IMG/VR virus record: IMGVR_UViG_3300050194_000017 | Location: 25,722-89,721 of that record | DNA: 64,000 bases | From: a virus | Reading direction: 5' to 3' (one strand) | Shown: piece by piece, positions 15,942-16,086 of the stretch | Layout of the letters: each line of letters begins with the position of its first letter | Position numbering within the stretch: the first letter of the stretch is position 1 | Notes under the pieces: model-generated | Databases searched by the model: none | The model's input: only the letters and a program-made list of their open reading frames with translations | Told to the model about the DNA's origin: nothing | Position numbers and translations under genes: made by a program

Positions 15942-16086
15942 AGGATATTTGCAGCAAACAAAAAAGCTAATAGGACTTTCTGTCTCAATTGACGTGGTGG
16001 TTCGATTCCATCACTCCGGACCAATAAATCATATTTCGGAGTTGGCGAAACTGGTAGACGCGGAAAGAAGCAAAAAAGATATCCTG
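15942..16086 (+). ncRNA. Scaffold RNA copy 2 enclosing a circularly permuted tRNA-Leu(TAG)
   Basis: 3' half (TAGGA-CTTTC, variable arm, T-arm, ACTCCGG-ACCA; 15971-16023) precedes the 5' half (TCGGAGT-TG-GCG-AAACTGGTAGA-CGC-G-GAAAG; 16036-16067). Outer AGGATAT/ATATCCT stem with GCAGCAA. Confidence 0.8.

What the first reader, a model, noticed from the sequence alone, without database searches (positions are those of the whole stretch)
15942..16086. Circularly permuted tRNA-Leu(UAG) inside the scaffold RNA (YrlA-like or two-piece tRNA)
Seen: the order is anticodon remnant UAG-GA, 3' anticodon strand CTTTC, variable arm, T-arm, acceptor 3' strand plus ACCA, a 12-nt spacer, acceptor 5' strand TCGGAGT, a Leu-type D-arm (GCG-AAACTGGTAGA-CGC), then GAAAG, which pairs perfectly with CTTTC. 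G37 and A73 fit Leu(UAG). Established: permuted tRNA genes are known from some algae and a crenarchaeon; two-piece tmRNAs are permuted; bacterial YrlA Y RNAs have a T-acceptor-D permuted tRNA module on a Ro60-binding stem. Inference: either cleavage in the spacer gives a chargeable two-piece tRNA mimic, or circularisation and ligation give a mature tRNA-Leu, although A32/A33 would be non-canonical.
Basis: partly seen in the sequence, partly recalled or inferred. Interest (0 to 1): 0.85.

Follow-up and report, generated by a model that had tools for sequence, protein, structure and literature searches.

The report
Phage Y-like RNA holding rearranged tRNA-Leu
The flagged 145 bases are a real small-RNA gene of a large phage: a complete leucine tRNA body with its parts in rotated order, mounted on a conserved stem with a CAGCAA 'handle'. 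It is most likely the partner RNA of a Ro60-like ring protein that the same phage encodes.

Summary
Observation confirmed. Window 15942-16086 (+) reads: closing stem, UAGGA, CUUUC, Leu-type variable arm, T arm, acceptor 3' strand, ACCA, 12-nt spacer, acceptor 5' strand (7/7 pairs), Leu-type D arm, GAAAG, closing stem. Rejoined in silico, ARAGORN calls it tRNA-Leu(UAG).

It is not unique. A covariance model built only from five siblings finds it full-length (40.7 bits, E 1.7e-6). Ten distinct members keep all six helices: 95% of cells paired, 28 of 32 pairs with compensatory changes.

All members share a terminal stem followed by NCAGCAA. The record has no TROVE gene. Two siblings, however, lie just upstream of a DUF2828-DUF7788 protein whose model matches only Ro60 structures over its full length. 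Among 34 related phage records, TROVE and DUF2828 never occur together, and CAGCAA RNAs occur only in DUF2828 lineages. CAGCAA hairpins also lie directly upstream of DUF2828 genes in other, more distant contigs.

Best reading: a YrlA-like Y RNA of a divergent Ro60 system. This copy, alone among those found, keeps a class II Leu body, ACCA and a spacer. It therefore looks like a recent product of a tandem tRNA-Leu pair and a likely RNase P substrate. Circularisation into a true tRNA is unlikely. This scan has met the same RNA-protein pairing before in Felix O1-type phages.

The parts
15942..15948 (+). Closing stem P1, 5' strand (AGGAUAU); pairs with 16079-16085
   Evidence: Pair probabilities 0.72-1.0. 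All 7 pairs show compensatory changes across 10 distinct members.
15949..15958 (+). Handle: UUG then CAGCAA (15952-15957) then A. UUGC can pair with GCAA at 16070-16073; AGCAA is left single-stranded.
   Evidence: NCAGCAA follows the 5' strand of the stem in every member. Copy 1 UUGC:GCAA versus copy 2 UUUC:GAAA is a compensatory change.
15959..15970 (+). A-rich linker (AAAAAAGCUAA); GCU 15966-15968 could pair with AGC 16069-16071
   Evidence: Sequence only; alternative pairings are not resolved.
15971..15975 (+). UAGGA: equivalent of tRNA positions 34-38 (anticodon UAG, G37, A38), now part of a 7-nt bulge
   Evidence: ARAGORN reads UAG as the anticodon after rejoining. Five bases only; I estimate the chance of a Leu-compatible reading at about 5% (inference).
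15976..15980 (+). Anticodon-stem 3' strand CUUUC; pairs with GAAAG 16063-16067
   Evidence: 5/5 pairs covary in the family.
15981..15995 (+). Class II (Leu-type) variable arm, GUC/GAC stem
   Evidence: No other member found has a long variable arm.
15996..16012 (+). T arm GGUGG-UUCGAUU-CCAUC
16013..16023 (+). Acceptor 3' strand ACUCCGG, discriminator A73, CCA
16024..16035 (+). 12-nt spacer; with ACCA it forms the 16-nt cap of the acceptor stem. Predicted RNase P cut between 16035 and 16036.
   Evidence: Sequence. The cut site is an inference from the M. smegmatis YrlA precedent (PMC4201824).
16036..16044 (+). Acceptor 5' strand UCGGAGU (7/7 pairs), then U8 G9
   Evidence: 7/7 acceptor pairs covary in the family.
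16045..16062 (+). Leu-type D arm (3-bp stem, 11-nt loop with GG), then G26
16063..16067 (+). Anticodon-stem 5' strand GAAAG
16068..16086 (+). AAGCAAAAAAG linker, P1 3' strand AUAUCCU (16079-16085), then G; the RNA ends in ...CCUGU as in its siblings
   Evidence: tRNA-Thr starts 12 nt further on at 16099.
12709..12757 (+). Short sibling: same stem and UUUCAGCAAC handle, small hairpin cargo, no tRNA module
18156..18211 (+). Short sibling (AGGAUGAU/AUCAUCCU stem, UUCAGCAAAC)
19293..19345 (+). Short sibling
21718..21771 (+). Short sibling, directly after tRNA-Met

Best explanation
Window 15942-16086 is one gene of a family of phage small RNAs built like Y RNAs. The constant part is a terminal stem followed on the 5' strand by an invariant NCAGCAA. 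It is most likely the docking site for the phage's own Ro60-like ring protein. That protein has DUF2828 and DUF7788 domains and lies at G000:14872-16344, minus strand, 25 kb away, directly downstream of two sibling RNAs. The variable part here is a tRNA mimic of the YrlA type: T arm, acceptor stem and D arm in rotated order, with the anticodon stem running into the handle.

By analogy with Ro60/Y RNA particles, the handle would hold the ring protein. The tRNA-shaped module would recruit or occupy a tRNA-binding enzyme or a host nuclease that attacks tRNA. The conserved neighbourhood (T4-type RNA ligase 1, CCA-adding enzyme, Pth2-like protein, tRNA island) points to tRNA repair, tRNA quality control or counter-defence.

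The RNA is probably cut out of a longer transcript by the tRNA-processing enzymes that also release the flanking tRNAs.

This copy is special. Its module is a whole class II tRNA-Leu(UAG) body that still has A73-CCA and a 12-nt spacer. It therefore looks like the 3' half of one tRNA-Leu gene fused to the 5' half of a tandem copy, a young example of the proposed dimeric-tRNA origin of YrlA. It is also the member best suited to RNase P cleavage into a nicked two-piece form.

Shown: the anatomy, family membership, covariation, the protein's Ro60 fold, and the co-occurrence of RNA and protein. Inferred: binding, processing and function.
For: Anatomy.

Family membership: model R2, trained without this copy, gives 40.7 bits, E 1.7e-6, full length.

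Structure: 95.4% of cells paired versus 38-44% when the partners are slid; 28 of 32 pairs show compensatory changes; 0 of 500 shuffles reach the observed values.

Siblings: copy 2 at G000:16698-16819(-) and copy 3 at 17726-17845(-); three tandem members in L093; further members in G012/G019, L222 and L233.

Rfam YrlA hits three of the siblings at 29-32 bits and a fourth only weakly (19.9 bits, E 4.9), and hits TROVE-linked relatives at 38-45 bits.

Protein: Pfam DUF2828 + DUF7788. AF2 model pLDDT 87.7, pTM 0.87. The top 13 Foldseek PDB hits are all Ro60, about 500-550 aligned columns, E 1.7e-9 to 1.9e-5; the next hits are vWA domains only, E > 0.01. hhalign of its vWA part against the phage TROVE proteins gives 95.7% probability.

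Distribution in the 34 related records: TROVE in 8 of the 20 screened for it (which include all 8 complete genomes), DUF7788 in 7 of 34, none with both. CAGCAA RNAs occur only in DUF7788 lineages. TROVE records carry a different 5' motif.

CAGCAA stems lie within 400 nt upstream, on the gene's strand, in 6 of 12 DUF2828 loci: 9 hits against 0.12 expected from a background of 0.025 per kb. L227 and L223 have minimal versions.

Context: Rnl1 and a CCA-adding enzyme lie on the same strand in G000, in the same order as in L222 and L225.

[quoted passage not shown] Dimeric-tRNA origin model (10.1101/312249). The Ro60-like gp130 of phage Bas63, placed upstream of tRNA genes, counters the Ppl defence (PMC11482910).
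Against: There is no RNA-level evidence: no transcriptome holds the stretch, so expression, ends and processing are unknown.

Binding of the handle to the DUF2828 protein is inferred from co-occurrence only. The independent lineages are few and the records are fragments (G000 about 44% complete).

This copy lies 25 kb from the protein gene, not beside it.

In G005, G022 and G033 a DUF7788 gene was found without a detected RNA. L225 also has no handle upstream.

The handle lacks the GNCGAA motif of YrlA. Rfam's YrlA model gives no hit on this copy at E <= 10.

The alignment used for pair counts was fitted to the model's structure, which inflates pairing.

No orthologue of the Leu-type copy exists in the data, so its own conservation cannot be judged.
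Confidence: 0.68

Rival explanations
1. Two-piece chargeable tRNA mimic as the working form. RNase P cuts between 16035 and 16036 and exonucleases trim the spacer back to CCA. The nicked molecule is leucylated by LeuRS, which in E. coli reads A73 and the tRNA core, not the anticodon. The charged molecule then acts on EF-Tu, the ribosome or an aminoacyl-tRNA-sensing pathway.
For: 7-bp acceptor stem stacked on a 5-bp T stem, A73-CCA encoded, U at -1, Leu-type D arm and variable arm. M. smegmatis YrlA with a 7-bp stem is cut by RNase P and receives CCA in vivo (PMC4201824). The phage encodes a CCA-adding enzyme.
Against: Five of the six full members in G000 and G002 cap the acceptor stem with 5-8 nt and no CCA. 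A free chargeable end is therefore not the conserved feature. Only one other member has NCCA in its cap (L093 7656-7767, GCCACA). No data on cleavage or charging. A73 could pair with U-1 and so extend the stem.
Confidence: 0.12
2. A true circularly permuted tRNA gene. The closing stem is removed and the ends are ligated, for example by the phage's Pnkp and Rnl1, which naturally seal tRNA between positions 33 and 34. The acceptor loop is then opened to give a mature tRNA-Leu(UAG), a species not otherwise found in the 97 kb held.
For: The rejoined sequence is called tRNA-Leu(tag). UAGGA starts exactly at position 34. Rnl1 is encoded. No canonical tRNA-Leu(UAG) was found in the window or in L035.
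Against: No bulge-helix-bulge motif and no known bacterial or phage enzyme for such excision. The loop would read A32 A33 instead of Y32 U33. The siblings have the same layout with capped acceptor stems and no anticodon remnant. The handle is conserved as sequence, which is not expected of a discarded leader and trailer. More than half of the genome is missing, so a normal tRNA-Leu(UAG) may exist.
Confidence: 0.03
3. Evolutionary debris. A tandem pair of tRNA-Leu genes was truncated by insertion of, or recombination between, copies of a repeated hairpin (a MITE-like element, or a processing or terminator hairpin) that litters the tRNA island. On this view the permuted module has no function of its own.
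For: Four short hairpins with the same ends lie in the same island. This copy has no orthologue elsewhere. It keeps features (ACCA, spacer) that the family does not need.
Against: The same T-acceptor-D order recurs with unrelated sequences and full covariation in at least 10 members from at least 6 lineages. Chance truncations would not give this. The handle is asymmetric (CAGCAA on one strand only) and always in the direction of transcription, unlike terminal inverted repeats. All tRNA core elements of this copy are intact.
Confidence: 0.1
4. The CAGCAA stem is a cis-acting signal rather than the core of a stable particle. It could be an operator through which the DUF2828 protein controls its own mRNA and neighbouring transcripts, or an RNase III/E processing site. 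The cargo would then be incidental.
For: Minimal CAGCAA hairpins sit 10-25 nt before the start codon of DUF2828 genes in L227 and L223. Many copies lie just upstream of genes or tRNAs.
Against: Copies with large, structured and conserved cargo (tRNA-like modules, T arms) are hard to explain as operators. Tandem arrays of three (L093) resemble Y RNA gene arrays beside TROVE genes in the related phages. The two roles do not exclude each other.
Confidence: 0.07

Closest known systems
YrlA (Y RNA-like A; Rfam RF02553) of Salmonella, Mycobacterium smegmatis and mycobacteriophages, partner of Ro60/Rsr (PMC4201824; 10.1101/312249)
   Same: Size about 110-145 nt. A stem formed by the 5' and 3' ends. 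A conserved short motif just after the 5' strand. A tRNA-like domain in the order variable region, T arm, acceptor-like stem, D arm, with the anticodon stem joined to the terminal stem. Encoded with a Ro60-fold protein and among tRNA genes. As in M. smegmatis YrlA, the acceptor stem has 7 bp.
   Different: The motif is NCAGCAA, not GNCGAAN0-1G. The partner protein is DUF2828-DUF7788, not Pfam TROVE. No Rfam hit on this copy. The module is a class II Leu body with ACCA and a 12-nt spacer already encoded, whereas YrlA stems are closed loops and M. smegmatis YrlA gets CCA added after cleavage.
TROVE-linked YrlA-like RNA arrays in related jumbo phages
   Same: Same phage group, linked through the GT-like gene. 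Same permuted tRNA module. Tandem arrays next to the ring-protein gene.
   Different: Their 5' motif is GGUUUAUCUA or GAGUUACUUCG, their partner is TROVE, and their acceptor stems are 7-11 bp. No record has both systems.
Ro60-like gp130 of Escherichia phage Bas63 (Felix O1 type), counter of the Ppl defence (PMC11482910), and the CAGCAA-handle RNAs that earlier reports of this scan placed beside that protein family
   Same: A Ro60-fold protein directly upstream of a tRNA cluster. The authors themselves proposed that some of the 'tRNAs' are Y RNAs. Felix O1-type phages carry homologues about 39% identical to the G000 protein.
   Different: A different phage group (about 87-kb Felix O1 type versus a phage of at least 212 kb from leaf litter). 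I did not check that gp130 itself is the DUF2828 homologue. No defence phenotype is known here.
Circularly permuted tRNA genes of Cyanidioschyzon merolae and Thermofilum pendens
   Same: The 3' half lies upstream of the 5' half, joined through the acceptor ends by a short spacer. The anticodon stem is formed by the transcript's ends.
   Different: Those are matured through a bulge-helix-bulge motif, the splicing endonuclease and a ligase into canonical tRNAs. Here there is no such motif, no U33, and the flanks are a conserved handle.
Two-piece (permuted) tmRNA
   Same: Permuted gene order with a CCA-bearing acceptor piece first. The two pieces are held together by pairing.
   Different: No tag reading frame, no pseudoknots, G3:C70 rather than G3:U70, a full D arm, 145 nt. 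ARAGORN finds no tmRNA and Rfam cyano_tmRNA scores 8.9 bits.
Class I RNAs of dictyostelid social amoebae (PMC7919456)
   Same: A short stem joining the 5' and 3' ends, an 11-nt motif directly after the 5' strand, a variable remainder, and a 3' end in CUGU. The paper reports U, C, C, A, A as near-invariant at motif positions 3, 6, 9, 10 and 11. The 11 nt ending in CAGCAA here (AUUUGCAGCAA) have exactly these.
   Different: Class I RNAs are eukaryotic, about 60 nt, have their own promoter element, and their known binder is an RRM protein. Any evolutionary link is untested.

Membership tests
YrlA (Rfam RF02553) | tRNA-like domain with the T arm 5' of the D arm and an acceptor-like stem between them | tested here: met
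   Conserved with covariation in the family.
YrlA (Rfam RF02553) | Long stem formed by the 5' and 3' ends | tested here: met
   7-bp P1 plus 4-bp extension. 7/7 P1 pairs covary.
YrlA (Rfam RF02553) | GNCGAAN0-1G motif near the 5' end (proposed Rsr site, PMC4201824) | tested here: not met
   The 5' region reads AGGAUAUUUGCAGCAAAC. The conserved motif is NCAGCAA in all members.
YrlA (Rfam RF02553) | Score at or above Rfam's gathering threshold (69 bits) | tested here: not met
   No YrlA match at E <= 10 on 15850-16300. Three siblings score 29-32 bits and a fourth 19.9.
YrlA (Rfam RF02553) | Encoded next to a Ro60/TROVE (PF05731) gene | tested here: not met
   No TROVE in the 97-kb record. The record is about 44% complete, so absence from the whole genome is not shown. 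A Ro60-fold DUF2828 protein is present instead.
YrlA (Rfam RF02553) | Bound by Ro60; carries tRNA modifications (DusA, TruB) | not testable with these tools
   Needs biochemistry.
CAGCAA-handle RNAs linked to DUF2828 Ro60-like proteins (not in Rfam; met before by this scan) | Terminal stem of 6-9 bp whose sequence varies but whose pairing is kept | tested here: met
   at least 10 different stem sequences, all paired.
CAGCAA-handle RNAs linked to DUF2828 Ro60-like proteins (not in Rfam; met before by this scan) | NCAGCAA 0-3 nt after the 5' strand of the stem | tested here: met
   CAGCAA at 15952-15957.
CAGCAA-handle RNAs linked to DUF2828 Ro60-like proteins (not in Rfam; met before by this scan) | A DUF2828-DUF7788 gene in the same genome | tested here: met
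   G000:14872-16344(-), next to siblings copy 2 and copy 3 and 25 kb from this copy.
CAGCAA-handle RNAs linked to DUF2828 Ro60-like proteins (not in Rfam; met before by this scan) | Physical binding of the handle by the protein | not testable with these tools
   Only co-occurrence is shown.
Circularly permuted tRNA genes (C. merolae type) | 3' half upstream of 5' half, joined at the acceptor ends | tested here: met
Circularly permuted tRNA genes (C. merolae type) | Bulge-helix-bulge motif where the transcript's ends meet | tested here: not met
   Next to the anticodon stem there is a 7-nt bulge opposite 1-2 nt and a possible 3-bp helix, not a 3-4-3 motif (sequence).
Circularly permuted tRNA genes (C. 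merolae type) | The product has a canonical anticodon loop | tested here: not met
   Positions 32-33 would be A A; U33 is absent.
Two-piece tmRNA | Tag reading frame, pseudoknots, G3:U70 | tested here: not met
   ARAGORN finds no tmRNA. cyano_tmRNA scores 8.9 bits on the T arm and acceptor only. Pair 3:70 is G:C.
Ro60 / TROVE proteins (for the partner protein) | HEAT-repeat ring plus C-terminal vWA domain with a MIDAS motif | tested here: met
   Full-length Foldseek matches to 13 Ro60 chains. vWA part aligned with the D.S.SM motif at 95.7% probability.
Ro60 / TROVE proteins (for the partner protein) | Match to Pfam TROVE (PF05731) | tested here: not met
   Pfam files the protein as DUF2828 + DUF7788, with vWA_Ro60 only at E 0.054.

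The most novel reading that the evidence does not exclude
The Leu-type copy is not just a scaffold RNA. RNase P and 3' trimming would turn it into a nicked tRNA-Leu look-alike whose anticodon arm is the Ro60-like protein's handle. LeuRS could charge it, or it could present an intact acceptor/elbow and a UAG-bearing bulge to a host tRNA-Leu-directed nuclease or sensor. This would physically couple a Ro60-like ring to the aminoacylation or tRNA-cleavage machinery. It would be a new kind of particle and a living intermediate of Y RNA birth from tandem tRNAs.
Probability: 0.12. Interest if true: 0.9.

Novelty: new variant of a known kind. Interest (0 to 1): 0.66.

Why it matters
Ro60/Y RNA particles are known from animals, some bacteria and a few phages. 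What their tRNA-like modules bind is still unknown.

Four points emerge here.

1. A second, sequence-divergent branch of Ro60-fold proteins (DUF2828-DUF7788; over 2,700 homologues and 711 phage records) has its own RNA partners with a different handle, absent from Rfam.

2. Within one group of related large phages, the TROVE system and the DUF2828 system replace each other, each with its own handle. That is a natural specificity experiment.

3. One member still carries a complete tRNA-Leu with CCA and an intergenic spacer. This is the clearest sequence-level support I know of for the proposal that YrlA-type RNAs arose from dimeric tRNA transcripts. It also provides a ready substrate for testing RNase P cleavage and charging.

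4. A Ro60-like phage protein has been reported to defeat a bacterial defence (PMC11482910), so naming its likely RNA partners makes that mechanism testable.

The RNA-protein pairing itself was already reported by this scan on Felix O1-type phages, so it is not new to the scan.

Tried and rejected
- Rfam at gathering and at E <= 10 on the element: nothing but neighbouring tRNAs.
- Megablast of the region against phage records: only the tRNA-Thr matches.
- blastn-short of the element against 33 related loci: no relatives.
- Pattern scans of IMG/VR and JGI metagenomes with the two ends. Almost all matches were chance. Only L041 (identical to copy 2) and L093 were real. One scan was wasted on a spacing error.
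- Model R1, built from copy 2 alone, aligned only the two ends of this copy (9.1 bits, E 0.05 in the 231-base stretch searched), skipping the tRNA-like module. R2, built from five siblings, did.
- TROVE search in the own record, and tblastn of relatives' TROVE proteins and their neighbours: negative.
- RtcB: absent.
- HMM search of the DUF2828 alignment against PDB sequences: no Ro60. Only the fold search showed the relation.
- RNA evidence: no transcriptome holds the stretch.
- Orthologues of the Leu-type copy next to the closest GT-like genes: none.
- Many Rfam YrlA hits at E < 0.01 turned out to be junctions of adjacent tRNA genes. Examples are window 13163-13221 and 8918-9042, and the hits at L170, L171, L180, L181, L183, L185 and L186. 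I discarded them.
- MITE and terminator readings: considered and ranked low. The handle is asymmetric and the cargo is conserved in structure. The sigma-70-like and terminator scans were not above shuffles.
- I guessed a Bas63 accession and got another phage, so the identity of gp130 with this protein family rests on the paper and on earlier notes.
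Full report
WHAT IS THERE

The window is positions 25722-89721 of a 96,962-base IMG/VR virus record, about 44% complete. The phage is distantly related to Ralstonia phages RsoM2USA and phiRSL1. It carries a tRNA island with 17 ARAGORN calls between 8.8 and 21.7 kb.

- closing-stem strand AGGAUAU, then UUG-CAGCAA and an A-rich linker;
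- UAGGA, then CUUUC;
- a 15-nt variable arm;
- T arm GGUGG/UUCGAUU/CCAUC;
- ACUCCGG, A, CCA;
- 12 nt of spacer;
- UCGGAGU, which pairs 7/7 with ACUCCGG;
- UG, then D arm GCG/AAACUGGUAGA/CGC, then G;
- GAAAG, which pairs with CUUUC;
- a linker, then AUAUCCU.

A scanner I wrote for this permuted layout found only two perfect cases in both strands of the record. Joining the two halves across the scaffold gives an 87-nt sequence that ARAGORN calls tRNA-Leu(tag), even with the natural A-A at positions 32-33. The body is only 51-59 nt identical to the phage's other Leu tRNAs, so it is not a recent copy of one of them.

Contigs from four separate sequencing runs cover 15700-16400 without a single difference. 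The order is therefore not an assembly artefact, with the caveat that those runs may be the source series.

Energy alone does not single the fold out (z -1.3).

IT IS ONE OF A FAMILY

The second perfect case lies outside the window, at G000:16698-16819 on the minus strand. It has the same ends (AGGAUAUUUUCAGCAAC ... AAAAAGAUAUCCUG) around an ordinary-sized permuted tRNA module whose acceptor stem is closed by 8 nt.

A covariance model built from it (R1) found several more:
- a third copy at G000:17726-17845(-), with stem GGAUGAU/AUCAUCC;
- three tandem members in another viral contig (L093);
- four short hairpins in the window with the same stem and handle but no tRNA module (12709, 18156, 19293, 21718).

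A second model, R2, was built from the five siblings and not from the flagged copy. It finds the flagged copy full-length at 40.7 bits, E 1.7e-6.

Further full members turned up in G012/G019, L222 and L233. On ten distinct sequences all six helices hold. 95.4% of cells pair, against 38-44% when the partners are slid by 1-3 columns. 28 of 32 pairs show changes on both sides, and no shuffle out of 500 reaches the observed values. That alignment was fitted to the model, so the figures lean towards the structure.

The acceptor stem has 7 pairs in all members. Its cap is 5-8 nt in five of the six members of G000 and G002. One of those caps reads GCCACA. Only the flagged copy has ACCA plus 12 nt.

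RELATION TO YrlA

The layout is that of YrlA: a terminal stem, a short conserved 5' motif, then variable region, T arm, acceptor-like stem and D arm (PMC4201824; 10.1101/312249).

Rfam's YrlA model hits three siblings at 29-32 bits (E 0.002-0.009) and a fourth weakly (19.9 bits, E 4.9), but not this copy. All are below the 69-bit threshold. Many other sub-threshold YrlA hits were junctions of neighbouring tRNA genes and were discarded.

The YrlA motif GNCGAAN0-1G is not present. The invariant motif here is NCAGCAA.

THE PARTNER PROTEIN

The 97-kb record has no TROVE gene.

I fetched 33 related loci through the GT-like gene at 16279-17409; with the contigs of L041 and L093 and the phage's own record they make the 34 records searched below. 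Eight of the 20 records screened for it, which include all eight complete genomes, do encode TROVE proteins of 516-564 aa. Arrays of permuted tRNA-like RNAs sit directly beside most of those genes. These RNAs carry another 5' motif, GGUUUAUCUA or GAGUUACUUCG.

The CAGCAA RNAs occur in G000, G001, G002 and G012/G019, none of which has TROVE. G012 is a complete 313-kb genome.

An all-against-all comparison showed that the gene just downstream of copies 2 and 3 in G000 (G000:14872-16344, minus strand, 490 aa) is homologous to the gene just downstream of the three tandem RNAs in L093 (35% identity). Pfam files both proteins as DUF2828 + DUF7788, with faint vWA hits.

An AlphaFold model from a 34-sequence alignment is confident (pLDDT 87.7, pTM 0.87). 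Its 13 best matches among solved structures are all Ro60: Xenopus, human, D. radiodurans Rsr and Thermus phage phiLo. They align over about 500-550 columns at E 1.7e-9 to 1.9e-5. Everything below is a bare vWA domain at E > 0.01. The vWA part also aligns with the phage TROVE proteins by profile comparison (95.7% probability).

DUF7788 is present in G000, G001, G002, G005, G012, G022 and G033, and in no TROVE record.

THE LINK HOLDS BEYOND THIS PHAGE GROUP

In contigs fetched through more distant DUF2828 homologues (45-72% identity), a stem followed by NCAGCAA lies on the gene's strand directly upstream of the gene:
- in L226 (two copies), L228 (two copies), L229 and G012;
- further upstream in L222 and L229;
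- as minimal hairpins just before the start codon in L227 and L223.

With a strict rule (8/8 pairs), nine hits fall within 400 nt upstream in six of twelve loci. The expectation is 0.12, from a background of 0.025 hits per kb measured on 2 Mb of unrelated viral loci. The two hits in TROVE loci look like chance. Rfam has no family for these RNAs.

The neighbourhood recurs: T4-type RNA ligase 1, a TilS-like protein, a CCA-adding enzyme, Pth2 and tRNAs. G000 has Rnl1 and the CCA-adding enzyme on the same strand upstream of copy 3.

The protein family is large: more than 2,700 homologues and 711 phage records. Some depositors already label it 'Ro-like RNA binding protein'.

HOW IT MOST LIKELY WORKS

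Shown: a conserved RNA with a constant handle and a variable module, a Ro60-fold protein that travels with it, and an RNA-repair gene context.

Inferred by analogy with Ro60/Y RNA particles:
- The stem plus CAGCAA binds the ring protein.
- The tRNA-shaped module binds a tRNA-recognising partner.
- The particle acts in tRNA repair, tRNA quality control or counter-defence. The Ro60-like gp130 of phage Bas63 counters the Ppl defence, and its authors suggested Y RNAs among the adjacent tRNA genes (PMC11482910).

The RNA lies 8 nt after the stop of a 77-codon ORF and 12 nt before tRNA-Thr. In G012 the members abut tRNAs on both sides. Release by RNase P and 3' trimming of a polycistronic transcript is therefore plausible, though it is an inference.

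WHAT IS SPECIAL ABOUT THIS COPY

It is the only member found with a class II variable arm, A73-CCA and a spacer of intergenic length. That is what one expects if the 3' half of one tRNA-Leu gene and the 5' half of a tandem copy were retained. This is the dimeric-tRNA origin proposed for YrlA (10.1101/312249, citing Sim and Wolin 2018), except that here the acceptor stem is the tRNA's own rather than spacer-derived.

It has every feature of an RNase P substrate. M. smegmatis YrlA, with a 7-bp stem, is cut and receives CCA in vivo (PMC4201824). I put cleavage at about even odds, and functional leucylation at about one in eight.

Circularisation into a real tRNA-Leu is unlikely, at about 3%. There is no bulge-helix-bulge motif and no U33. 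The handle is conserved as sequence, and the siblings have closed acceptor stems.

LIMITS

- There are no RNA data.
- Binding is not shown.
- The records are fragments and the independent lineages are few.
- Three DUF7788 records and one further locus show no detected RNA.
- This copy has no orthologue.

EARLIER NOTES OF THIS SCAN

After I had found the DUF2828 link, a look-up showed that the scan had reported the same pairing in Felix O1-type phages. It had also noted a resemblance to dictyostelid Class I RNAs. The text of PMC7919456 gives U, C, C, A, A as near-invariant at motif positions 3, 6, 9, 10 and 11, and a 3' CUGU. The handle here fits both. I did not test any evolutionary link.

Noticed in passing
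window 16184-16261 (+): ARAGORN calls a 78-nt tRNA-Leu(cag) right after tRNA-Thr, but Rfam's tRNA model does not reach it. It has a good T arm and an acceptor stem with A73-CCA, but a weak D arm, a 7-bp 'anticodon' stem and G at position 33. It is possibly another tRNA-like RNA rather than a decoder.
   Followed up: partly
window 16279-17409 (+), L019 and L233: The GT-like gene (weak Pfam GT4-conflict / Glycos_transf_1) has a CAGCAA-handle RNA beside it in three lineages. The RNA lies about 190 nt upstream in G000, about 160 nt downstream in G012, and 54 nt downstream in L233. This may be plain synteny of the tRNA island or a real link.
   Followed up: partly
window 8979-9082 (+): Rfam scores a 104-nt tRNA at 62 bits that ARAGORN does not call.
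   Followed up: no
window 18517-18602 and 18613-18698 (+): tRNA-Gly(tcc) and tRNA-Cys(gca) are each called at 86 nt (Rfam: 83 nt). That is unusually long for these class I tRNAs.
   Followed up: no
window 14043-14119 and 14792-15097 (+): A tRNA with anticodon CUA (an amber reader, labelled Pyl by ARAGORN) lies upstream of a Pth2-like ORF (Pfam PF01981, E 3.6e-7). An earlier report of this scan covers this pair.
   Followed up: no
window 19242-19258 (+): An isolated T-arm-like hairpin (UCUGG-UUCGAUU-CCAGA) lies 35 nt upstream of the short handle RNA at 19293. The island holds several tRNA fragments besides whole genes.
   Followed up: no
L229 1905-2004 (+); L226 4777-4900; L228 4787-4915; L215 1979-2094 (-): CAGCAA-handle RNAs with other cargo: a lone T arm (L229), or 115-130-nt structured inserts without any T loop. 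The handle therefore carries interchangeable modules, as Y RNAs do.
   Followed up: partly
L227 about 4945-4985 and L223 about 5955-5990 (+): Minimal stem-CAGCAA hairpins lie 10-25 nt before the start codon of the DUF2828 gene. They may allow the protein to regulate its own mRNA.
   Followed up: no
handle 15947-15957 and 3' end 16083-16087: The 11 nt ending in CAGCAA and the 3' CUGU fit the conserved positions reported for Class I RNAs of social amoebae (PMC7919456). Whether dictyostelids have a DUF2828 protein that binds them was not checked.
   Followed up: partly
G018 175781-176105 (-) (L162, L175): A 99%-complete 238-kb relative with neither TROVE nor DUF7788 detected still has two full-length YrlA-like RNAs in tandem, with long acceptor stems. 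Their partner, if any, would be a host protein or a third protein type.
   Followed up: no
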